This document shows, piece after piece, positions 3 to 7,260 of a DNA stretch of 10,259 bases. The position numbers and the translations under genes are program-made. The notes under the pieces are model-generated. The model saw only the letters and a program-made list of their open reading frames with translations, searched no databases and was not told the origin of the DNA. Positions within the stretch are counted from its first letter, which is position 1. Each line of letters opens with the position of its first letter. Source of the DNA: a virus (lineage: Duplodnaviria > Heunggongvirae > Uroviricota > Caudoviricetes); IMG/VR virus record IMGVR_UViG_3300042471_001635. One strand, 5' to 3'.

Positions 3-3000
3 TCAGGAACATCCGGCACAACGGGTACGTCTGGTACATCAGGAACATCCGGTACAACTGGAACTAGCGGTACCTCAGGAACTTCTGGTACAACTGGAAC
101 CAGTGGAACTTCAGGTACATCAGGCACATCAGGAACATCAGGTTCTTCAGGAACAAGTGGTACAGACGGAACTTCGGGTACTACTGGAACATCAGGCACA
201 TCAGGTACGAGTGGTACAACTGGTACTTCAGGTACAAGTGGAACTTCTGGTACAACTGGAACTAGCGGTACATCAGGTACGAGTGGTACAACTGGTACTT
301 CAGGTACAAGTGGAACTTCAGGTACAACAGGAACCTCAGGAACATCTGGTACAACAGGTACAAGTGGTACATCAGGAACGTCTGGTACTACTGGAACATC
401 TGGTACAAGTGGTACATCAGGTACATCAGGTACATCAGGTTCTTCAGGGACGAGTGGTACAGACGGAACCTCAGGCACAAGTGGCACATCTGGTACAACA
501 GGAACAAGCGGTACATCCGGCACGAGTGGAACAACTGGTACGTCAGGTACTTCAGGTACAAGTGGAACAACAGGTACTAGCGGAACTTCAGGTACATCTG
601 GAACTACAGGAACAAGCGGAACCTCAGGAACTTCCGGTACTTCAGGAACATCTGGTACTAGCGGAACCTCAGGAACAACTGGTACAAGTGGAACTTCTGG
701 TACAAGTGGTACATCTGGTACAACAGGTACGAGTGGAACTTCAGGTACTTCAGGAACATCTGGTACAAGTGGTACGTCTGGAACAACAGGTACTTCAGGA
801 ACATCTGGTACAAGTGGAACATCAGGAACATCAGGTACTTCAGGTTCAAGTGGAACGTCAGGTTCTTCAGGAACTTCAGGTTCAAGTGGAACATCAGGTT
901 CTTCAGGAACTAGTGGGTTTAGTGGTGTGTCAGGTGGACGAACCCTCTATATGAACTATAGTGTAAACACTAGTTCTGCAATAGGTACTCCAACGTATAA
1001 ACAATTGGGAGATTTCATTTCAGCACCTTTACAAACAATTTCAACAGGTTCAGTTGCAGGAGGAGTTACGGTCACAGTTGCAAGTTTTGCAACAGACACT
1101 GGAGTTCCAAATAATCCTGTGTTTGACGGAGGTATGTATACAGCTTTCTTGCATTTTCAATCAAATAACTCTTCAGCATGGGTATTTTATGTTGAATTTT
1201 ATACATACACAACAGGAGGAACCGAAACTTTAGTCTTCTCAACCTCTGAAACACCTTCTATATCGAGCAGTTCAATACAAATGTACATTGCTGATGGATT
1301 TTACAGTGGTAGTACAATTAATACTTCAGATAGAATTGTTGCTAAGGTTAAAGCTAGAAATACAGACGCACAGGCACATACATTAACATTCTATACAGAG
1401 AACAATCAGTATTCATATCTTTCAACTCCTTTAGCAGCAGTTGAAGGAAGTTCAGGAACATCAGGAACTAGTGGTACATCAGGTTCAAGTGGAACCTCAG
1501 GTACGTCCGGTACTAGTGGCACAAGTGGTACGAGTGGTACTTCAGGAAGTAGTGGTACTTCTGCAACATCAGGAAGTGCGGGTACTTCAGGAACATCAGG
1601 TACAAGTGGCACATCAGGAACATCTGGTACAACAGGTACAAGTGGTACATCAGGAACCTCTGGTACAACAGGTACAAGTGGTACATCAGGAACCTCTGGT
1701 ACTACAGGAACCTCCGGTACATCAGGAACTTCTGGTACGACTGGAACCTCAGGTACATCAGGAACTTCTGGTACGACTGGAACTTCAGGCACTTCAGGAA
1801 CTTCAGGTACAACTGGAACCTCAGGTACTTCGGGAACATCAGGTACGACTGGTACAAGTGGTACTTCAGGTTCTTCAGGTACGAGCGGAACAGATGGTAC
1901 TTCAGGAACAAGCGGAACATCTGGTACAACTGGTACAAGCGGTACATCAGGAACTTCAGGTACAACTGGTACTTCAGGAACAAGCGGAACATCTGGTACA
2001 ACTGGTACTTCAGGAACAAGCGGAACATCTGGTACAACTGGTACTAGTGGAACTTCAGGGACATCAGGAACATCAGGTTCTTCAGGAACAAGCGGAACGG
2101 ATGGTACATCAGGAACAAGTGGTACATCAGGTACTTCAGGCACTTCAGGTACAACGGGTACCTCAGGAACTAGTGGTACATCTGGAACGAGTGGTACAAC
2201 AGGAACAAGCGGTACATCAGGAACGAGTGGTACAACAGGAACAAGTGGTACATCGGGTACTTCAGGTACATCAGGTTCTTCAGGAACTAGCGGTACGGAT
2301 GGAACTTCAGGAACAAGTGGTACTTCAGGAACATCAGGTACAACTGGAACAAGCGGTACATCAGGAACATCAGGTACAACAGGTACTAGTGGAACTTCAG
2401 GGACTTCAGGTACAACAGGAACCAGTGGTACTTCAGGTACTTCAGGTTCTTCAGGAACTTCTGGTACAACAGGAACATCAGGAACGTCTGGTACAACAGG
2501 AACATCAGGAACGTCTGGTACAACAGGAACATCAGGAACTAGCGGAACTTCAGGAACCTCTGGAACTTCAGGTTCTTCGGGAACTAGTGGTACAGACGGA
2601 ACATCTGGTTCAAGTGGAACATCTGGTTCAAGTGGTACTTCAGGTACAACTGGAACATCGGGTACAAGTGGAACGTCAGGAACATCAGGAACATCAGGTT
2701 CTTCAGGAACAAGCGGAACGGATGGTACATCAGGAACAAGTGGTACATCAGGTACTTCAGGCACTTCAGGTACAACGGGTACCTCAGGAACTAGTGGTAC
2801 ATCTGGAACGAGTGGTACAACAGGAACAAGCGGTACATCAGGAACGAGTGGTACAACAGGAACAAGTGGTACATCGGGTACTTCAGGTACATCAGGTTCT
2901 TCAGGAACTAGCGGTACGGATGGAACTTCAGGAACAAGTGGTACTTCAGGAACATCAGGTACAACTGGAACAAGCGGTACATCAGGAACATCAGGTACAA

Positions 3001-5486
3001 CAGGTACTAGTGGAACTTCAGGGACTTCAGGTACAACAGGAACCAGTGGTACTTCAGGTACTTCAGGTTCTTCAGGAACTTCTGGTACAACAGGAACATC
3101 AGGAACGTCTGGTACAACAGGAACATCAGGAACGTCTGGTACAACAGGAACATCAGGAACTAGCGGAACTTCAGGAACCTCTGGAACTTCAGGTTCTTCG
3201 GGAACTAGTGGTACAGACGGAACATCTGGTTCAAGTGGAACATCTGGTTCAAGTGGTACTTCAGGTACAACTGGAACATCGGGTACAAGTGGAACGTCAG
3301 GAACATCTGGAACGACGGGTACTAGTGGAACTTCAGGAACATCAGGTACTACAGGAACGTCAGGTACTAGCGGAACTTCAGGAACTACTGGAACATCAGG
3401 AACAAGTGGAACATCAGGAACATCTGGTACAACTGGAACAAGCGGAACCTCTGGTACTACAGGAACAAGTGGTACTTCGGGAACTAGTGGAACTTCAGGA
3501 ACATCTGGCTCATCAGGAACGAGCGGAACGGACGGAACATCTGGTTCAAGTGGAACATCGGGAACATCAGGTACTTCAGGTACGACAGGTACAAGTGGTA
3601 CTTCAGGAACTACTGGAACATCAGGAACAAGTGGAACATCAGGTACAAGTGGCACTAGTGGTACAACAGGAACAAGTGGTACATCTGGTACTACAGGAAC
3701 AAGTGGTACATCTGGTACTACAGGAACAAGTGGTACAAGTGGAACCTCAGGTACAACTGGAACAAGTGGAACGTCTGGTACAAGTGGTTCATCAGGAACA
3801 AGTGGAACGGATGGTACATCTGGAAGTTCAGGTACTTCAGGTACATCTGGAACTTCAGGAACAACAGGTACATCAGGCACAAGTGGTACTAGTGGTACAA
3901 CAGGTACTTCAGGTACATCTGGAACTTCAGGTACGACAGGTACTTCAGGTACATCTGGAACTTCAGGAACAACAGGCACATCAGGTACAAGTGGTACTAG
4001 TGGTTCATCAGGAACAAGTGGTACTGATGGTACATCGGGAACTTCAGGCACATCGGGAACCTCTGGAACAACTGGAACAAGCGGTACTTCAGGTTCAAGT
4101 GGAACATCAGGTACAACTGGAACAAGTGGTACTTCAGGTTCAAGTGGAACATCAGGTACATCAGGTACAACTGGTACAAGTGGCACTTCTGGAACTACGG
4201 GTACATCAGGTTCTTCTGGAACAAGTGGTACAGATGGGTCTTCAGGAACTTCAGGAACAAGTGGAACTACAGGTACTTCTGGCTCATCAGGTACGTCAGG
4301 TACAAGCGGAACTACAGGTACTTCAGGAACAAGTGGTTCATCAGGAACATCTGGTTCATCTGGCACTTCAGGTACTAGTGGAACGACAGGAACATCAGGT
4401 ACTACCGGTACATCAGGAACAAGTGGTTCATCAGGAACATCTGGCTCATCTGGTACTTCAGGTACTAGTGGAACGACAGGAACATCAGGTACTACCGGTA
4501 CATCAGGAACAAGTGGTTCATCAGGAACATCTGGCTCATCTGGTACTTCAGGTACTAGTGGAACGACAGGTACATCAGGTACTACGGGTACATCAGGTAC
4601 TACGGGTACATCAGGAACAAGTGGTTCATCAGGAACATCTGGCTCATCTGGCACATCTGGAACAAGCGGAACGACAGGTACATCAGGTACTACGGGTACA
4701 TCAGGTACTACGGGTACATCAGGAACAAGTGGTTCATCAGGAACATCTGGCTCATCTGGCACATCTGGAACAAGCGGAACGACAGGTACCTCTGGTACTA
4801 CGGGTACATCAGGTACTACGGGTACATCAGGAACAAGTGGTTCATCAGGAACATCTGGCTCATCTGGCACATCTGGAACAAGTGGAACGACAGGTACCTC
4901 TGGTACTACGGGTACATCAGGTACTACGGGTACATCAGGGACAAGTGGTTCTTCTGGTACCTCTGGAACAAGTGGAACATCGGGTACATCAGGAAGTTCA
5001 GGTCTTGGTACAATTAACAACAATGTAAACAATTATGTTCTTACCGCGACTGGGACCGCAGGAACTATAAACGGCGAGGCAAATCTACAATTTGACGGTA
5101 CAACATTATCTGTTACGGGCGATGCTACGATTACAGGTTCACTAACAGCGGCATCCAAGTCATTTGACATCCCACACCCAACAAAAGAAGGATATAGATT
5201 AAGATACGGTGTGTTGGAAGGTCCTGAACACGGAGTTTACCACAGAGGTAAAGCTACAAGCGAAATAATTGAATTACCTGATTATTGGAGTGAATTGGTA
5301 GACCTTGAAACAACAACAGTTCATCTAACACCTATCGGAAAGTCAAACGACCACTTCGTGGTGAAAGTTGAAGAGAACACAGTTGTGATTGGCTCTGAAA
5401 CAGGTGAAATAAACGCTTACTTCATGGTTCAAGCTGAACGTAAAGACGTGGAAAAGGTCTTGTTAGAGTACAAACCGAATAAATAA
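3..5486 (+). CDS. Giant Gly-Thr/Ser triplet-repeat (collagen-like, proline-free) fibre or surface protein, 5'-truncated by the window edge (at least 1827 aa)
   Basis: Reading codons from position 3 (tca gga aca tcc ggc aca...) gives no stop up to 927, and 3 and 927 share a frame. The ORF-track start GTG at 927 lies inside ...GTS-GFS-GVS-GGR. Stop TAA at 5484-5486. Synonymous third-position variation across the repeats supports this frame as the coding one. The fibre role is inferred from the G-X-Y tracts and the C-terminal domain. Confidence 0.9.
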   Translation, partial: SGTSGTTGTSGTSGTSGTTGTSGTSGTSGTTGTSGTSGTSGTSGTSGSSGTSGTDGTSGTTGTSGTSGTSGTTGTSGTSGTSGTTGTSGTSGTSGTTGTSGTSGTSGTTGTSGTSGTTGTSGTSGTSGTTGTSGTSGTSGTSGTSGSSGTSGTDGTSGTSGTSGTTGTSGTSGTSGTTGTSGTSGTSGTTGTSGTSGTSGTTGTSGTSGTSGTSGTSGTSGTSGTTGTSGTSGTSGTSGTTGTSGTSGTSGTSGTSGTSGTTGTSGTSGTSGTSGTSGTSGSSGTSGSSGTSGSSGTSGSSGTSGFSGVSGGRTLYMNYSVNTSSAIGTPTYKQLGDFISAPLQTISTGSVAGGVTVTVASFATDTGVPNNPVFDGGMYTAFLHFQSNNSSAWVFYVEFYTYTTGGTETLVFSTSETPSISSSSIQMYIADGFYSGSTINTSDRIVAKVKARNTDAQAHTLTFYTENNQYSYLSTPLAAVEGSSGTSGTSGTSGSSGTSGTSGTSGTSGTSGTSGSSGTSATSGSAGTSGTSGTSGTSGTSGTTGTSGTSGTSGTTGTSGTSGTSGTTGTSGTSGTSGTTGTSGTSGTSGTTGTSGTSGTSGTTGTSGTSGTSGTTGTSGTSGSSGTSGTDGTSGTSGTSGTTGTSGTSGTSGTTGTSGTSGTSGTTGTSGTSGTSGTTGTSGTSGTSGTSGSSGTSGTDGTSGTSGTSGTSGTSGTTGTSGTSGTSGTSGTTGTSGTSGTSGTTGTSGTSGTSGTSGSSGTSGTDGTSGTSGTSGTSGTTGTSGTSGTSGTTGTSGTSGTSGTTGTSGTSGTSGSSGTSGTTGTSGTSGTTGTSGTSGTTGTSGTSGTSGTSGTSGSSGTSGTDGTSGSSGTSGSSGTSGTTGTSGTSGTSGTSGTSGSSGTSGTDGTSGTSGTSGTSGTSGTTGTSGTSGTSGTSGTTGTSGTSGTSGTTGTSGTSGTSGTSGSSGTSGTDGTSGTSGTSGTSGTTGTSGTSGTSGTTGTSGTSGTSGTTGTSGTSGTSGSSGTSGTTGTSGTSGTTGTSGTSGTTGTSGTSGTSGTSGTSGSSGTSGTDGTSGSSGTSGSSGTSGTTGTSGTSGTSGTSGTTGTSGTSGTSGTTGTSGTSGTSGTTGTSGTSGTSGTSGTTGTSGTSGTTGTSGTSGTSGTSGTSGSSGTSGTDGTSGSSGTSGTSGTSGTTGTSGTSGTTGTSGTSGTSGTSGTSGTTGTSGTSGTTGTSGTSGTTGTSGTSGTSGTTGTSGTSGTSGSSGTSGTDGTSGSSGTSGTSGTSGTTGTSGTSGTSGTTGTSGTSGTSGTTGTSGTSGTSGTTGTSGTSGTSGSSGTSGTDGTSGTSGTSGTSGTTGTSGTSGSSGTSGTTGTSGTSGSSGTSGTSGTTGTSGTSGTTGTSGSSGTSGTDGSSGTSGTSGTTGTSGSSGTSGTSGTTGTSGTSGSSGTSGSSGTSGTSGTTGTSGTTGTSGTSGSSGTSGSSGTSGTSGTTGTSGTTGTSGTSGSSGTSGSSGTSGTSGTTGTSGTTGTSGTTGTSGTSGSSGTSGSSGTSGTSGTTGTSGTTGTSGTTGTSGTSGSSGTSGSSGTSGTSGTTGTSGTTGTSGTTGTSGTSGSSGTSGSSGTSGTSGTTGTSGTTGTSGTTGTSGTSGSSGTSGTSGTSGTSGSSGLGTINNNVNNYVLTATGTAGTINGEANLQFDGTTLSVTGDATITGSLTAASKSFDIPHPTKEGYRLRYGVLEGPEHGVYHRGKATSEIIELPDYWSELVDLETTTVHLTPIGKSNDHFVVKVEENTVVIGSETGEINAYFMVQAERKDVEKVLLEYKPNK
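6..914 (+). repeat. Coding Gly-X-Y tract 1 (at least 101 triplets of GTS/GTT/GSS/GTD), open at the window start
   Basis: Gly codon every 9 nt from 6 to 915; the register continues through GFS, GVS and GGR to about 941. Confidence 0.95.
942..1445 (+). other. Non-repetitive, probably beta-rich globular domain (~168 aa) between the two repeat tracts
   Basis: TLYMNYS...YLSTPLAAVE, with alternating hydrophobic/aromatic and polar segments (MYTAFLHF, WVFYVEFYTY, RIVAKVKARN, LTFYTE). The fold is not identifiable by eye. Confidence 0.65.
2061..3307 (+). repeat. Perfect 621-bp tandem duplication (2061-2681 and 2682-3302, match extends to 3307)
   Basis: Line-by-line comparison shows identity including synonymous positions; flanking mismatches at 2060/2681 and 2687/3308. 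Confidence 0.9.
4331..4950 (+). repeat. Higher-order tandem array: two 90-bp units then four 108-bp units
   Basis: The anchor aagtggttc recurs at 4331, 4421, 4511, 4619, 4727, 4835 and 4943 (spacings 90, 90, 108, 108, 108, 108). Confidence 0.9.
5004..5483 (+). other. C-terminal domain of the fibre protein: short beta-repeat stalk plus a 'KSFDIPHP...LEGPE...LPDYW...AERKD' module of the kind seen at phage fibre C-termini
   Basis: Motifs NGEANLQFDG, SKSFDIPHPTKEGYRLRYGVLEGPEHGVYHRG, IELPDYWSELVD, TVHLTPIG, VQAERKD. Recognised from memory of phage fibre-like proteins, not from a database search. Confidence 0.55.
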
Positions 5487-5491
5487 AATTG

Positions 5492-5521
5492 AAAAGGGAA
5501 GTGAAAACTTCCCTTTTTTTT
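5492..5521. terminator. Bidirectional intrinsic (Rho-independent) terminator between the convergent genes
   Basis: Perfect 11-bp inverted repeat AAAAGGGAAGT (5492-5502) / ACTTCCCTTTT (5507-5517) with a GAAA (GNRA-type) loop. The T run at 5514-5521 serves the + strand, and the A-rich 5' flank gives a U tail on the - strand. Confidence 0.88.
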
Positions 5522-6191
5522 ATCTATTATCTATGTAAATTATAATTTCAGTAAAAACATCAATGAACTCATCAGTCCAAAATTTTTCTTCAATATTCAG
5601 TCCATTCCAAGACCTGACCTTAAAATTTGGGAAAATCCTCAAATAAGTATCTCTGAAAATTCTGAATTTGGTTTTCAATTCTGGAGTTCTCAAATGCCAT
5701 TCTCCTACAATTTTTCTGACATTTGATTTTATCCAAAATAAGTTTTCAATATTAAAAATATCATATTCGCCACCCTCACAATCAGTTTTCAAAAAATCAA
5801 TTTTGGAAATATTGTAATTTGAGATTACAGATTTGAATGTGGTTGAATATAGTTTATTTTTGTCTTGGTTTTCAAAAACAAATTCAAAATTGAATTCACC
5901 ATCAACATTAGAGATACCTTTATTAATTTGTGTAACAGGACCGAAGTTAGTGTTCTTAACAAGTGTAACAAATTCGGCTAAAGAGGGTTCAAACGCAAAA
6001 ACATGAGAAGGTTTTTTATCCAATATAGAGAAAGTAAAAGGACCCAAACTTGCTCCTACATCAAAAACAACGTCCCCTTGTTCCACCTCAAAGTATTTTT
6101 CATATAGATTATCTATAAAAATTTCTTTATAAACGGTCTCTTTGAAACCCTCATAACACTGAGGTTCCCAAATGAAATTTTCTAAATTCAT
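5520..6191 (-). CDS. FkbM-family (Methyltransf_21) SAM-dependent methyltransferase, 223 aa
   Basis: Motif I DVVFDVGASLG, then VFAFEP and IDFLKTDCEGGEY, which match the FkbM family pattern. Its ATG overlaps the upstream TGA (ATGA at 6191-6188). Confidence 0.88.
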   Translation of the reverse strand: MNLENFIWEPQCYEGFKETVYKEIFIDNLYEKYFEVEQGDVVFDVGASLGPFTFSILDKKPSHVFAFEPSLAEFVTLVKNTNFGPVTQINKGISNVDGEFNFEFVFENQDKNKLYSTTFKSVISNYNISKIDFLKTDCEGGEYDIFNIENLFWIKSNVRKIVGEWHLRTPELKTKFRIFRDTYLRIFPNFKVRSWNGLNIEEKFWTDEFIDVFTEIIIYIDNR

Positions 6192-7260
6192 AATAAGTGT
6201 TGAATTTGTTTGATTAACATTTCTGATGTTATTGATTTATGACATTCAAAATGTCTCTCAGTACCTTTATGTACTGGGCACCAATCCCAATCACCCTTAT
6301 CAAAAGAAAATTCAGGTTTATTCCAACAACCATTACAAACTGATAAGTTTATAATTCTTGTACAGTTTGATTGGAATTCGTGGTCAGGGGTGGTGAAATT
6401 ACTTATCATCACAACATGTTTACCCATCCCCCAAGCAAGCCAGCTTAATCCACTCGATAGTCCAATGAAAAATTCGCTATGATGAATAACATTCATTGTA
6501 TTTTCCATTGAGGTATCAGTAATTCTAATTTGGTTTTCAAAGGGATTGTTTTCTTTGGAAACATTTACCACTTTATAACCTAATGATGTTAGATAATTTA
6601 TGGTTTCTTGCCAACCTTCTCTTGTCCAAAACTTACATCCCGCAGTAGAATTGGTGGCAATTGTCACATACTTATCCGCATATGGTCTTTCTTTAATTTC
6701 ATAATGTATCTTTGGTTGTATTTCTTTGAATTCTAATCCAAGAATATCAGTTGCAGTTTGTTGTAAAGGAATTAGGTTAGGTTTCGTAGGTTGCATATCT
6801 ACGTTATAGAACCAACCAAGTTTATACATTCCGTGAATATTATTCACTACAGTTCCAGGTGTTACAAATATCACATCAGGGTAAACAGATTCAAAAAGAT
6901 GATTCCAAAAAGTTGAAACAACTACCTCACAATTATTATGTTTTCTAAATTCTTCAACATATGGAACCCATGAAATAGTATCACCCAAAGACTTGGAATC
7001 AAATGCGATGTAAACACGTTTACCTTCATAGTTCAGGGTGTTTTCATAAACCAAATTGTCATTTTCCCATACTTTGGTATTCCATCTTGTAAAATACTGT
7101 CTGTTAAGTTTAACCCAACTATTAATCGGTAGTAGGTTTTCATAATGTAAAACCCCTTTCTCATCAAAAAACTGAACTTTGAACTTATTCTCACTTTTAC
7201 CTTTAATTTCGATAAAAGGTTGATTTATGAAATATTGTGTAACTGACAATTTGCTCTTAA
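6188..7260 (-). other. Autotransporter heptosyltransferase (BAHT; TibC/Aah-like, GT9-related) domain with iron-finger motif
   Basis: N-terminal beta subdomain followed by SKSLGDTISWVPY (Asp at 6980-6982), STAGCKFW (Lys at 6632-6634), EFFIGLSSGLSWLAW, MISNFT and C-x2-C-x15-C-x11-C (Cys at 6337, 6328, 6280, 6244). Confidence 0.85.

What the first reader, a model, noticed from the sequence alone, without database searches (positions are those of the whole stretch)
3..5000. Proline-free Thr/Ser 'collagen' with a tract longer than vertebrate fibrillar collagen
Seen in sequence: strict Gly-every-third register over 395 triplets (one Gly-to-Ala) plus at least 101 more upstream, with no Pro and no charged residue except Asp. 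Established: collagen rise is about 0.29 nm per residue, so tract 2 would span roughly 340 nm as a triple helix. Gly-Thr-Ser has low intrinsic triple-helix propensity, but glycosylated Thr stabilises the hydroxyproline-poor Riftia cuticle collagen, and Bacillus BclA is a glycosylated bacterial collagen. Gly-X-X repeats can also form polyglycine-II bundles (snow flea antifreeze protein). Inference: folding may depend on glycosylation by the neighbouring enzyme. Here Thr is mostly in X and Ser in Y, unlike Riftia. A mucin-like disordered brush or an antifreeze-glycoprotein-like role are alternatives.
Basis: partly seen in the sequence, partly recalled or inferred. Interest (0 to 1): 0.72.

Follow-up and report, generated by a model that had tools for sequence, protein, structure and literature searches.

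The report
Proline-free collagen-like phage fibre, probably glycosylated
An uncultured large phage encodes a fibre at least 0.4 micrometres long, built almost only of Gly-Thr-Ser triplets with none of the usual collagen stabilisers, next to an enzyme of the family that attaches sugars to serines of bacterial adhesins, so sugars may be what holds this collagen together.

Summary
ORF 3..5486 (+, 5'-open) reads at least 104 Gly-X-Y triplets, a 165-residue globular insert, 396 more triplets with one Gly-to-Ala, then a 158-residue C-terminal domain. The tracts contain no Pro. The only charged residue is Asp, apart from two residues at the tract edges.

It is the fibre of an uncultured T4-type phage. 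The C-terminal domain is a widespread phage fibre knob, and the insert is a sugar-binding-type jelly roll. In 48 related fibre genes (18,437 triplets), Gly keeps its register for up to 952 triplets, with about one frame-shifting break per 460.

The 1,281-residue neighbour ends in a TibC/Aah-family protein O-glycosyltransferase module. It matches TIGR04414 at 283.7 bits (cut-off 200) and PDB 4RAP at E 9e-50, with the catalytic Asp and all four iron-finger Cys conserved. TibC modifies Ser, not Thr, and Ser fills 72% of the family's Y positions. This module occurs beside Gly-X-Ser fibres but not beside Gly-X-Thr or Gly-X-Gln ones.

My best reading is a glycosylated collagen-type triple helix. Neither the fold nor the glycan has been tested. 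Length alone is not exceptional for prokaryotic collagens.

This scan found the same family earlier on other DNA. I reached the TibC result before reading those notes.

The parts
3..941 (+). Collagen-like tract 1: at least 104 Gly-X-Y triplets (mostly GTS and GTT). It is open at the 5' end, so the N-terminal anchor of the fibre lies outside the window.
   Evidence: Translation and triplet count. Pfam PF01391 E 6.4e-46.
942..1436 (+). Inserted 165-residue globular domain: a jelly-roll beta-sandwich of the galactose-binding / carbohydrate-binding-module type. The same module recurs between Gly-X-Y tracts in many mosaic phage fibres.
   Evidence: 28% identity over the full length to the inserts of L017 and L019. 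33 further IMG/VR loci carry it. AF2 model: pLDDT 85.6, pTM 0.85. VIA Z 14.0 (rmsd 2.9, 154 aligned) to the 8yzn C-domain, Z 13.6 to 6nff, and Z 7-9.6 to carbohydrate-binding modules. Foldseek E 2e-7 to the CocE C-domain.
1437..5009 (+). Collagen-like tract 2: 396 triplets from nt 1446, with one Gly-to-Ala (ATS). It has a (GTS)3-GTT sub-period, a GSS-GTS-GTD marker every 14-35 triplets (mostly 22-35), and a 621-nt exact tandem duplication at 2061-3307.
   Evidence: Pfam PF01391 E 1e-84 on its first 600 residues.
5010..5144 (+). Conserved neck (TINNNVNNYVLTATGT..GEANLQFDGTTLSVTGD). It directly follows the tract in the knob-bearing Gly-X-Ser relatives examined. It is duplicated or extended in some of them.
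   Evidence: Alignments and architectures. Low monomer pLDDT of 37-66. I infer, without a test, that such low monomer confidence fits a segment that is ordered only in the trimer.
5145..5486 (+). C-terminal knob with the invariant KSFDIPHPTKEG..LEGPE motif followed by a beta-sandwich, plus the stop codon.
   Evidence: PHROG 17490 E 8e-40 and PHROG 28536 E 6e-36. tblastn: Flavobacterium phage immuto 'tail fiber-like protein' at 54.5% and 33 Synechococcus phage records. AF2 core pLDDT above 90. VIA Z 8.0 (rmsd 1.9, 65 aligned) to the cyanophage Pam1 tailspike tip, Z 6.5 to AP22 gp53 fibre, Z 6.2 to R2 pyocin fibre. 5,934 cluster representatives at E <= 1e-3.
5491..5518 (.). Bidirectional intrinsic-terminator hairpin between the convergent fibre gene and the methyltransferase gene.
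   Evidence: A 12-pair stem followed by a T-run is found on both strands.
5520..6191 (-). FkbM-family methyltransferase (223 aa). Its ATG overlaps the stop codon of the glycosyltransferase gene (ATGA), so the two form one operon.
   Evidence: PF05050 35.8 bits (cut-off 22.7). TIGR01444 50.5 bits (cut-off 37.7). Overlap read directly from the sequence. Syntenic in L004-L012, L019 and L021-L024.
6191..7189 (-). TibC/Aah (BAHT) family protein O-glycosyltransferase module. It is the C-terminal module of the 1,281-residue enzyme.
   Evidence: TIGR04414 283.7 bits (cut-off 200), residues 949-1279. PDB 4RAP TibC E 9e-50. The equivalents of Asp110, Thr226, Lys230, Trp305 and Cys339/342/358/370 are conserved here and in 15 other phage copies, whereas Arg286 and Pro300 are not.
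7202..8353 (-). GT4-type (GT-B) glycosyltransferase module.
   Evidence: PF00534 50.7 bits (cut-off 26.4), residues 741-891. PHROG 2170.
8354..9286 (-). Module without a family match. It carries a DxD-like motif (VDADS), so it is probably a GT-A glycosyltransferase. The in-frame extension at 10034-10258 repeats its C-terminal part.
   Evidence: Sequence read. No Pfam or PDB sequence match. Conserved in relatives. The GT-A assignment is inference only.
9287..10258 (-). GT25-type module (residues 1-249) plus an in-frame upstream extension that runs off the window. The enzyme may therefore be longer than 1,281 residues.
   Evidence: PF01755 32 bits (cut-off 24). PHROG 2835. Weak PDB sequence match to procollagen galactosyltransferase 1, E 0.02 over about 35 residues. 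The ORF is open at its 5' end.

Best explanation
The ORF is the C-terminal 1,827 residues of a fibre protein of an uncultured freshwater T4-superfamily phage, probably a jumbo phage.

Proposed mechanism:
1. Three chains are brought into register by the C-terminal knob and neck.
2. The Gly-Thr-Ser tracts zip up from there into a collagen-type (polyproline-II) triple helix.
3. This gives a thin shaft of at least 0.43 micrometres, interrupted once by a trimer of jelly-roll, sugar-binding-type domains and tipped by a receptor-binding-type knob.

The tract has no Pro and no Lys-Asp/Glu pairs, so it lacks both known intrinsic stabilisers. The convergent operon next door encodes a four-module glycosyltransferase ending in a TibC/Aah-type protein O-glycosyltransferase, followed by an FkbM methyltransferase. 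I propose that, in the cytoplasm, the TibC-like module puts the first sugar on Ser, which occupies the Y position. The GT4, GT-A and GT25 modules then extend the glycan and the methyltransferase caps it. Glycosylated Ser in Y would play the part of hydroxyproline, or of the galactosyl-Thr of Riftia collagen. It would also give the fibre a hydrated, protease-resistant coat.

Shown:
- the sequence periodicity and its conservation;
- the phage origin of the relatives;
- knob and insert homology and predicted folds;
- the family membership of the enzyme and the integrity of its catalytic residues;
- gene adjacency.

Inferred:
- trimer and triple helix;
- that the fibre is the enzyme's substrate;
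- Ser as the acceptor;
- any effect of the glycan on folding.

My odds:
- phage fibre with a periodic, ordered shaft: 0.85
- collagen-type triple helix: 0.6
- fibre glycosylated by the neighbouring enzyme: 0.65
For: Periodicity and selection:
- 500 triplets show free third-base variation in the Gly codons and one first-position substitution.
- In 48 dereplicated Gly-X-Ser fibre ORFs (18,437 triplets), uninterrupted runs reach 952 triplets.
- Of 174 short interruptions, 127 keep the register (Gly replaced by Ala, Lys or Asn). 37 are a two-residue 'xS', which is a triplet lacking its Gly, the classical G4G type (my classification from prior knowledge). Only 3 are a single residue.
- X and Y are strongly asymmetric across the family. 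Y is Ser in 71.6% of triplets. X is Thr 41%, Ser 28%, Ile 6.6% and Leu 4.6%.

Fibre identity:
- The knob matches PHROG families and annotated tail-fibre-like proteins, and sits near baseplate genes in cyanophages.
- The knob fold resembles the tips of phage fibres and spikes that, to my knowledge, are trimeric.
- Contigs of relatives carry a gp23-type capsid gene.
- P0127 has the same N-terminal anchor and knob as L013 but no tract, so the tract behaves as an insertable spacer.
- A prophage fibre collagen domain with a C-terminal trimeriser has been shown experimentally to form a triple helix (PMC3368898).

Glycosylation:
- The enzyme module scores above the TIGR04414 cut-off, matches TibC at E 9e-50, and keeps all catalytic and iron-finger residues. 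These residues are invariant in 16 phage copies sharing 38-69% identity.
- TibC modifies Ser and not Thr, and acts in the cytoplasm (PMC4358343).
- A TibC-like ORF lies in the fetched flank of 23 of 45 loci with at least 30 Gly-X-Ser triplets, against 3 of 72 other loci. Those three are a truncated fibre, a G-T-N/S fibre and a short Gly-X-Ser fibre. It is found at 0 of 9 Gly-X-Thr loci and 0 of 6 Gly-X-Gln loci.
- Two more Gly-X-Ser contigs carry it elsewhere on the contig.
- It occurs in at least four different gene arrangements.
- Glycosyl-Thr turns a random-coil (Gly-Pro-Thr)10 peptide into a triple helix (cited in PMC11923368).
Against: - No trimer model could be run, and no experiment exists on any member of the family.
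- From memory of host-guest peptide data (Persikov et al.), Thr in X and Ser in Y both have low triple-helix propensity.
- The proposed universal Lys-Gly-Asp/Glu 'folding code' of collagens (PMC11923368) is absent here.
- One relative (L023) replaces Gly with Lys, Asn or Arg at most of its interruptions, which recur about every 8th triplet. A collagen helix tolerates such replacements poorly.
- About half of the Gly-X-Ser loci show no TibC-like gene in the DNA fetched. Three fragmentary contigs (20-22% complete) have none at all.
- The co-occurrence counts are not phylogenetically independent.
- Known TibC/Aah substrates are beta-helical autotransporters, not collagen-like chains.
- The heptose-binding Arg286 is replaced, and no ADP-heptose kinase gene was found in five related contigs. 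The sugar is therefore unknown.
- Phage glycosyltransferases in fibre regions have been interpreted elsewhere as modifying host LPS (PMC7029224).
Confidence: 0.55

Rival explanations
1. The tract is a disordered, heavily O-glycosylated mucin-like brush or flexible tether. Gly-Thr-Ser merely gives flexibility and many acceptor hydroxyls, and no triple helix forms.
For: - Gly, Ser and Thr are typical of disordered linkers.
- About two hydroxyls per triplet sit beside a protein-Ser glycosyltransferase.
- G-T-S has low intrinsic helix propensity (from memory).
- Tract length varies freely between near-identical phages, 199 against 252 triplets.
- The same anchor and knob occur in a relative with no tract at all (P0127 versus L013).
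Against: - A disordered linker has no need for Gly at exactly every third residue. Here it is kept for up to 952 triplets across lineages whose X residues have diverged to Ile, Leu or Val.
- Third-base variation is free, yet there are almost no first- or second-base changes in the Gly codons.
- Only about one register-shifting break occurs per 460 triplets.
- X and Y are not interchangeable: Ser is 72% of Y but 28% of X.
- Hydrophobic Ile and Leu fill X in some relatives (for example L106), which is odd for a brush.
Confidence: 0.2
2. The tract folds back on itself into a polyglycine-II bundle, as in snow-flea antifreeze protein. It might act in ice binding or as a flat adhesive surface, rather than forming a three-chain collagen helix.
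For: - Gly-X-X periodicity fits polyglycine-II as well as it fits collagen.
- A Thr-rich face would result, and the source is a cold freshwater habitat.
- L023 has a regular non-Gly residue about every 8th triplet, which could mark turns.
Against: - The window's tract and the 925-952-triplet relatives show no periodic turn signals (Pro, Gly-Gly or loops).
- Tract lengths vary continuously rather than in bundle-sized steps.
- The chain ends in a neck and knob that resemble the tips of trimeric fibres.
- The snow-flea protein is about 80 residues long with disulfides (from memory), and nothing comparable is present here.
Confidence: 0.07
3. The fibre is a collagen-like shaft, but the glycosyltransferase operon does not act on it. 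The operon modifies host envelope glycans, another virion protein or DNA, and its adjacency to the fibre reflects the variable fibre region where phages collect such genes.
For: - Fibre-region glycosyltransferases of pelagimyophages have been read as LPS modifiers (PMC7029224).
- GT25, GT4 and GT9-like families are mostly LPS enzymes.
- About half of the Gly-X-Ser loci lack a TibC-like neighbour in the flank fetched.
Against: - The last module scores as a TibC/Aah equivalog (283.7 bits), not as an LPS heptosyltransferase (TIGR02193, 22.8 bits).
- The known members of that family characterised in the TibC paper (TibC, Aah) glycosylate proteins (PMC4358343).
- The module is found beside Gly-X-Ser fibres but never beside Gly-X-Thr, Gly-X-Gln or tract-less fibres that carry the same knob.
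Confidence: 0.25
4. The tract is an assembly artefact or is read in the wrong frame, and no such protein exists.
For: - Two forward frames and one reverse frame are open across the repeat.
- There is a 626-nt exact internal repeat.
- Some relatives show frame switches inside the tract (L004, L009).
Against: - Only the Gly-Thr-Ser frame runs without a stop from tract 1 through the conserved insert, tract 2, the neck and the knob.
- More than 40 independently assembled contigs have the same architecture.
- Codon use in the tract matches the flanking genes.
Confidence: 0.03

Closest known systems
EPclA/EPclB, collagen-like tail-fibre proteins of E. coli O157:H7 prophages (PMC3368898)
   Same: A phage fibre protein with a Gly-X-Y domain followed by a C-terminal trimerising domain. 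The rod-plus-knob shape was seen by EM, and the triple helix was shown by CD.
   Different: EPclA is Pro-rich in X and about 22% charged. It is not glycosylated and is far shorter, a 47-kDa protein. Its flanking domains (PfN, PCoil, PfC) are unrelated to the knob and insert found here.
[quoted passage not shown]
   Same: A microbial collagen-like filament rich in Thr, O-glycosylated with a methylated sugar cap, and ending in a C-terminal trimeric beta-sandwich. The protein-language-model search placed the tract next to BclA-type clusters (score 0.88; a lead only).
   Different: BclA repeats are Gly-Pro-Thr, with Pro in X and Thr in Y. There are tens of triplets rather than hundreds. Its glycosyltransferases belong to other families, and it is a spore protein, not a virion protein.
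TibC-TibA and Aah-AIDA-I of E. coli (bacterial autotransporter heptosyltransferases; TIGR04414; PDB 4RAP, 4RB4; PMC4358343)
   Same: The enzyme family is the same. The catalytic Asp, three of the four sugar-binding residues and the four-Cys iron finger are all kept. It is a cytoplasmic enzyme encoded beside a long repetitive Ser-rich substrate, which it modifies many times over.
   Different: Here the module is fused behind three other glycosyltransferase modules and sits in a phage. The putative substrate is a collagen-like chain rather than a beta-helical autotransporter. Arg286 and the Pro300 stereoselectivity position differ, so the donor sugar may not be heptose.
Riftia pachyptila cuticle collagen (galactosyl-Thr in Y; Mann et al. 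1996, as cited in PMC11923368)
   Same: A collagen poor in hydroxyproline, whose stabilising position carries a glycosylated hydroxy-amino acid.
   Different: In Riftia the residue is Thr in Y and Pro is still common. Here Y is Ser, X is Thr and there is no Pro at all. The glycosylation here is only inferred.
Mycobacteriophage virion O-glycosylation (Freeman et al. 2023, as cited in PMC12619734)
   Same: Phage-encoded glycosyltransferases that decorate the phage's own structural proteins.
   Different: The targets there are short C-terminal extensions of the capsid and tail-tube subunits. The enzymes belong to other families, and no collagen-like substrate is involved.
Snow-flea antifreeze protein (polyglycine-II bundle)
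   Same: A Gly-X-X period with small residues.
   Different: It is about 80 residues of short helices joined by turns in a single chain. The window's tract shows no turn signals and ends in a fibre knob.

Membership tests
Collagen triple-helix repeat proteins (Pfam PF01391) | Gly at every third residue over long runs | tested here: met
   104 + 396 triplets with one Gly-to-Ala. Relatives reach 952 uninterrupted triplets.
Collagen triple-helix repeat proteins (Pfam PF01391) | Score above the Pfam gathering threshold | tested here: met
   278.6 and 154.4 bits against a cut-off of 27.2. The model mainly rewards the Gly period, so this adds little beyond the row above.
Collagen triple-helix repeat proteins (Pfam PF01391) | A known sequence stabiliser: Pro/Hyp in X/Y, or Lys-Gly-Asp/Glu charge pairs | tested here: not met
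   The tracts contain 0 Pro and 0 Lys. There is one Arg, at a tract boundary, and Asp is the only acidic residue within them. PMC11923368 holds charge pairs to be general.
Collagen triple-helix repeat proteins (Pfam PF01391) | Three chains forming a triple helix | not testable with these tools
   Only monomer prediction was available. This needs CD, SEC-MALS, EM or multimer modelling.
Phage tail-fibre / receptor-binding proteins | Homology of the distal domain to annotated fibre proteins of cultured phages | tested here: met
   PHROG 17490 at E 8e-40. 54.5% identity to the Flavobacterium phage immuto tail-fibre-like protein, plus 46 phage records. Located beside baseplate genes in cyanophages.
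Phage tail-fibre / receptor-binding proteins | Distal-domain fold of known trimeric fibre tips | tested here: inconclusive
   VIA Z 8.0 (rmsd 1.9, 65 aligned) to the Pam1 tailspike tip, and Z 6.5 / 6.2 to the AP22 and R2 pyocin fibres. Foldseek against the PDB gave E > 0.04. Z values around 8 are in the range of common beta-sandwiches.
Phage tail-fibre / receptor-binding proteins | Presence in the virion | not testable with these tools
   No cultured phage carries the Gly-X-Ser form.
BAHT: TibC/Aah autotransporter O-heptosyltransferases (TIGR04414) | Score above NCBIfam's equivalog cut-off | tested here: met
   283.7 bits against a cut-off of 200, model positions 27-373 of 374. PDB 4RAP at E 9e-50.
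BAHT: TibC/Aah autotransporter O-heptosyltransferases (TIGR04414) | Catalytic base Asp110 and the four iron-finger Cys (339, 342, 358, 370) | tested here: met
   All are aligned and conserved in the window (numbering from PMC4358343). All are invariant in 16 phage copies.
BAHT: TibC/Aah autotransporter O-heptosyltransferases (TIGR04414) | The four heptose-binding residues (Thr226, Lys230, Arg286, Trp305) | tested here: not met
   Thr226, Lys230 and Trp305 are conserved, but Arg286 is Thr here. In the 16 phage copies that position is Thr in 7, Val in 5, Ala in 1 and Arg in 3. The donor sugar is therefore open.
BAHT: TibC/Aah autotransporter O-heptosyltransferases (TIGR04414) | An autotransporter adhesin as the adjacent substrate | tested here: not met
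   No autotransporter lies in the window or in related loci. The adjacent repetitive Ser-rich gene is the fibre.
BAHT: TibC/Aah autotransporter O-heptosyltransferases (TIGR04414) | Dodecameric ring assembly and Ser-specific transfer | not testable with these tools
   This needs biochemistry. Here the module is fused to about 950 upstream residues, which may not be compatible with the TibC ring.
FkbM-family methyltransferases | Score above the curated cut-offs | tested here: met
   PF05050 35.8 bits (cut-off 22.7). TIGR01444 50.5 bits (cut-off 37.7).
Snow-flea-type polyglycine-II antifreeze proteins | Short Gly-X-X segments joined by regular turns within one chain | tested here: not met
   The triplet map of both tracts shows no turn-like breaks. 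Sequence similarity to the snow-flea protein was not searched.

The most novel reading that the evidence does not exclude
Phages have evolved a third way to stabilise a collagen helix. The chain has no proline and no salt bridges. Its Y-position serines are glycosylated in the cytoplasm by a virus-encoded TibC-type enzyme that is fused to elongating glycosyltransferases and coupled to a methyl-capping enzyme. The result is a self-contained 'collagen plus glycan' kit that builds sub-micrometre virion fibres. Called-protein databases largely miss these genes because the repeat is open in several frames.
Probability: 0.35. Interest if true: 0.82.

Novelty: new variant of a known kind. Interest (0 to 1): 0.66.

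Why it matters
If the tract does form a triple helix, it is a natural counter-example to the view that collagens need imino acids or Lys-Asp/Glu clamps. It would make the idea that glycans can substitute for hydroxyproline directly testable, using two genes that can be co-expressed in E. coli.

It would also extend the TibC/Aah protein-glycosylating family from bacterial adhesins to viruses. Phage virion glycosylation would then reach well beyond mycobacteriophages.

A proline-free, hydroxyl-dense collagen that can be glycosylated by an enzyme is of interest as a recombinant biomaterial. For phage ecology, fibres of 0.4-0.8 micrometres would greatly enlarge the capture radius of a virion in dilute lake water.

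There is a practical point as well. The long Gly-X-Ser forms are common in viral contig DNA but nearly absent from sets of called proteins, so surveys based on predicted proteins under-count them.

Tried and rejected
- **Source contig.** An exact 38-mer from the window was not found in IMG/VR. The N-terminus of the gene therefore could not be recovered. The window may be a whole short contig broken in the repeat (my guess).
- **Knob structure searches.** Foldseek of the knob against the PDB gave nothing below E 0.04. A knob profile against PDB sequences also gave nothing.
- **Insert domain by tblastn.** This found no relative. Homology appeared only after direct alignment.
- **First coordinates for the L017 insert.** My guess was wrong and was corrected.
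- **The repeat finder.** The output on the tract was uninformative, so I mapped the triplets by script instead.
- **ADP-heptose pathway.** No rfaE kinase domain (TIGR02198) was found in five related contigs, including a 321-kb one. I do not claim heptose as the sugar.
- **Unassigned second glycosyltransferase module.** No PDB or Pfam match.
- **GT25 module versus procollagen galactosyltransferase.** The match is weak (E 0.02, about 35 residues). I treat it as a family signature, not as evidence of collagen specificity.
- **Literature.** Seven full-text searches found no paper on Gly-Thr-Ser phage fibres or on TibC-like enzymes in phages. The library lacks most subscription journals, so this is not proof of absence.
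- **Readings considered and rejected.** I rejected a giant-virus (Mimivirus-type) collagen, because the relatives carry a gp23-type capsid gene and phage PHROG families. I also rejected a bacterial surface protein, because no window or relative ORF matched any but phage or enzyme families and the context is a phage contig; I did not screen for signal peptides or anchors.


Full report
**1. What is in the sequence**

The window has three genes. On the + strand one ORF runs from the first bases to 5486. Its translation reads:
- a serine;
- 104 Gly-X-Y triplets;
- a 165-residue non-repetitive stretch;
- 396 further triplets;
- 158 non-repetitive residues and a stop.

A script count gives GTS 350, GTT 85, GSS 46 and GTD 13. 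There is one Gly-to-Ala (ATS) and no Pro. No charged residue occurs inside the tracts except Asp.

The other frames are also open over the repeat. Only this frame continues through both non-repetitive domains.

The DNA is much less regular than the protein:
- TRF finds only 64-70% matches.
- 43 distinct 9-mers encode GTS in tract 2.
- Ser uses both AGY and TCN codons.
- The first-position codons of tract 2 are GGT 197, GGA 172, GGC 21, GGG 5 and GCA 2.

The period is therefore held by selection on the protein, not by recent slippage alone. There is one exception, an exact 626-nt repeat at 2061-2686 and 2682-3307 (offset 621 nt). It makes the exact triplet number uncertain in a short-read assembly.

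**2. It is a phage fibre**

The last 158 residues match two PHROG families of unknown function at E 8e-40 and 6e-36. By tblastn they match 46 phage records:
- a 'putative tail fiber-like protein' of Flavobacterium phage immuto, at 54.5%;
- small proteins of T4-like cyanophages that lie just after the baseplate hub genes.

IMG/VR holds 434 stretches that encode a relative. A full HMMER pass over 1.84 billion representative proteins finds 5,934 at E <= 1e-3.

An AlphaFold2 model built with 36 sequences has a confident beta-sandwich core, with pLDDT above 90 for residues ~80-150. Its best structural matches are the distal tips of phage fibres and spikes:
- cyanophage Pam1 tailspike, Z 8.0, rmsd 1.9 over 65 residues;
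- AP22 gp53, Z 6.5;
- R2 pyocin fibre, Z 6.2.

These scores are suggestive, not decisive.

The contigs of the closest relatives are 137-321 kb and carry a gp23-type major capsid gene. The source is thus a T4-superfamily phage, probably a jumbo one. No whole genome is held for the window.

**3. The family and its register**

I read the fibre ORF in each related locus. The pattern is a mosaic family:
- an N-terminal anchor of 45-300 residues;
- one to several Gly-X-Y tracts;
- optional globular inserts;
- a conserved neck (TINNNVNNYV...LxFDGSTLxVTG);
- the knob.

Uninterrupted runs reach 925, 938 and 952 triplets (L030, L028, L027).

Across 68 dereplicated ORFs (17,735 triplets), Y is Ser in 71.6%. 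X is Thr in 41%, Ser in 28%, Ile in 6.6% and Leu in 4.6%. Gly-X-Gln, Gly-X-Thr and ordinary Gly-Pro-[Ile/Gln/Lys] proteins occur in related loci, and the Gly-Pro type sometimes lies on the same contig as a Gly-X-Ser fibre.

In the 48 Gly-X-Ser ORFs (18,437 triplets) there are 174 short interruptions:
- 127 are three residues long and keep the register (ATS, KTS, NTS);
- 37 are a two-residue 'xS';
- 3 are a single residue.

That is about one register shift per 460 triplets.

One called protein (P0127, 69% knob identity) has the same N-terminal anchor as L013 but no tract. Near-identical phages differ by 53 triplets (L007 versus L008). The tract therefore behaves as a length-variable spacer under a strict period-3 rule.

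**4. The insert**

Residues 314-478 align over their full length at 28% identity with the inserts of L017 and L019. The module (YYFNES...YYTEG..YYSF) occurs in 33 further IMG/VR loci, flanked by Gly-X-Y tracts wherever the flank could be read, and combined with various tips.

The AF2 model has pLDDT 85.6 and pTM 0.85. It is a jelly roll of the galactose-binding type:
- Z 14.0 (rmsd 2.9, 154 aligned) to the C-domain of 8yzn;
- Z 13.6 to 6nff;
- Z 7-9.6 to many carbohydrate-binding modules;
- Z 7.1 to the cyanophage A-1(L) short-fibre binding domain.

A second glycan-binding site midway along the shaft is a reasonable inference. No ligand can be named.

**5. The neighbouring enzymes**

A bidirectional terminator lies at 5491-5518. 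Convergent on the fibre gene beyond it are an FkbM methyltransferase (5520-6191) and an ORF of at least 1,281 residues. Their stop and start codons overlap as ATGA.

Pfam finds GT25, GT4 and a weak GT9 signal. NCBIfam resolves the GT9 signal. Residues 949-1279 score 283.7 bits on TIGR04414 ('autotransporter strand-loop-strand O-heptosyltransferase', cut-off 200). The LPS heptosyltransferase model scores only 22.8 bits. The only PDB sequences matched are TibC, at E 9e-50.

I compared that alignment with the residue numbers in the TibC paper (PMC4358343):
- Conserved: the catalytic base Asp110; the sugar-binding residues Thr226, Lys230 and Trp305; and all four iron-finger cysteines.
- Not conserved: Arg286, and the Pro300 and Ser294 positions.

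The same pattern holds in 16 distinct phage copies with 38-69% identity. The enzyme therefore looks active, but its donor sugar may not be heptose. No ADP-heptose kinase gene was found in five related contigs.

**6. Is the fibre the substrate?**

This is inference from three observations.

First, the known members of this family characterised in that paper (TibC, Aah) glycosylate repetitive Ser-rich proteins encoded next to them. They do so in the cytoplasm, which is the only compartment a virion protein sees before lysis. They modify Ser, not Thr (PMC4358343). Ser is the residue that defines the Y position of this fibre class.

Second, a TibC-like ORF lies within the fetched flank of 23 of 45 loci that have at least 30 Gly-X-Ser triplets, against 3 of 72 others. 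Those three are a 5'-truncated fibre whose relatives are Gly-X-Ser, a G-T-[N/S] fibre, and a short Gly-X-Ser fibre. None of the 9 Gly-X-Thr loci, the 6 Gly-X-Gln loci or the many tract-less loci with the same knob has one. Two more Gly-X-Ser contigs carry it further away.

Third, the pairing recurs in several gene orders: convergent and immediately downstream, upstream, downstream on the same strand, and fused to different partner modules.

These counts share ancestry and are not independent. Roughly half of the Gly-X-Ser loci, most of them short fragments, show no such gene.

**7. Structure of the tract**

A strict period of three, with Gly in the first position, fits a polyproline-II-type helix with Gly facing a tight core. 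With a neck and a trimer-type knob at the C-terminus, the obvious form is a collagen triple helix nucleated from the C-terminus. This has been shown experimentally for the prophage fibre EPclA (PMC3368898).

Points against ease of folding:
- There is no Pro and no Lys. The Lys-Gly-Asp/Glu clamps that a 2025 study holds to be common to collagens of all domains and viruses are therefore absent (PMC11923368).
- From memory of host-guest data, Thr in X and Ser in Y are poor helix formers.

That same paper recalls that (Gly-Pro-Thr)10 is a random coil until its Thr residues are galactosylated. Glycosyl-Ser in Y is thus a plausible stabiliser.

The disordered-brush reading does not explain the Gly period or the X/Y asymmetry. 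The polyglycine-II-bundle reading lacks turn signals in this protein. However, L023 has a non-Gly residue about every eighth triplet, often Lys, Asn or Arg, and it remains unexplained. The protein-language-model search only confirms that the tract looks like collagen and BclA-type clusters (score 0.88-0.90; a lead only).

**8. Known or new**

Collagen-like phage fibres, glycosylated microbial collagens (BclA) and phage virion glycosylation are each known. Long prokaryotic collagen-like chains of up to about 2,000 triplets are also on record (PMC11923368). Length alone is therefore not news.

What I did not find described in seven full-text searches:
- a proline-free, charge-pair-free Gly-Thr/X-Ser fibre class;
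- any TibC/Aah-family enzyme in a phage.

UniProt holds knob-bearing relatives under automatic names such as 'Collagen triple helix repeat [uncultured Caudovirales phage]'.

The long Gly-X-Ser forms are almost absent from called-protein sets. Of 120 long knob proteins, only 2 have 30 or more triplets. Of the 142 nearest representatives, only 5 have 10 or more, and none is a long Gly-X-Ser form. More than 40 IMG/VR contigs nevertheless encode them at the DNA level. A likely cause is that gene callers pick another open frame or a late start.

This scan has already reported the same family on other DNA. Those notes agree with this report. I had obtained the TibC result before reading them. Their remark about missed frames prompted my check.

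**9. Verdict**

The triple helix and the glycosylation are well motivated but untested.

Noticed in passing
window 2061-3307: An exact 626-nt stretch occurs twice (2061-2686 and 2682-3307), 621 nt (69 triplets) apart. This is longer than short reads, so the copy number in this part of the tract may be mis-assembled, or the duplication is very recent.
   Followed up: partly
window 6188-10258 (-): The glycosyltransferase ORF has no stop upstream of its first Met and runs off the window. The 75 in-frame residues before the Met repeat the C-terminal part of the enzyme's own second module (YAPF.EETI.NVLLWK...). The enzyme may therefore carry a fifth, duplicated module, or a paralogous gene may abut it.
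   Followed up: partly
window 5145-5222 (knob residues 46-71): The most conserved part of the knob is not the beta-sandwich but the lead-in KSFDIPHPTKEG.RLRYG.LEGPE. Lys50, Phe52, Ile54, His56, Pro57, Lys59 and Glu70 are invariant in 36 diverse sequences. A single invariant His per chain could form a metal site on the trimer axis, as in some T4 fibres. This is speculation.
   Followed up: no
L119 and L120 (the two ends of the 321,139-nt IMG/VR contig that holds L006): The 344-nt 'direct terminal repeat' behind this contig's classification as complete lies wholly inside the fibre gene's Gly-X-Y tract. The contig is broken in the repeat. The end overlap may be a true circular closure or a repeat artefact.
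   Followed up: yes
L023:1-7227: A relative with about 650 triplets has a non-Gly residue at the Gly position about every 8th triplet (24 residues): Ala most often, otherwise Lys, Asn, Ser or Arg. There is never a register shift. This is hard to reconcile with an ordinary collagen helix. It may mark regular kinks, or a different polyproline-II packing.
   Followed up: no
L027, L028, L030, L031, L020 (other ORFs on the same contigs): The phages with the longest Gly-X-Ser fibres also encode separate, ordinary Pro-rich collagen-like proteins (Gly-Pro-[Ile/Gln/Lys], 66-338 triplets per locus). Both chemistries therefore coexist in one virus.
   Followed up: no
L004:7736-10474 and L009:6185-10474: In these relatives the fibre reading frame switches inside the tract to the 'QEH/LQV' frame. 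This points to frameshifts from assembly error, or to real pseudogenes or programmed shifts within the repeat.
   Followed up: no
window 9287-10033 (-): The only PDB sequence similarity of the GT25 module is to human procollagen galactosyltransferase 1 (E 0.02-0.04 over about 35 residues). GT25 is the CAZy family of the collagen galactosyltransferases (my prior knowledge). The match is too weak to carry meaning on its own.
   Followed up: partly
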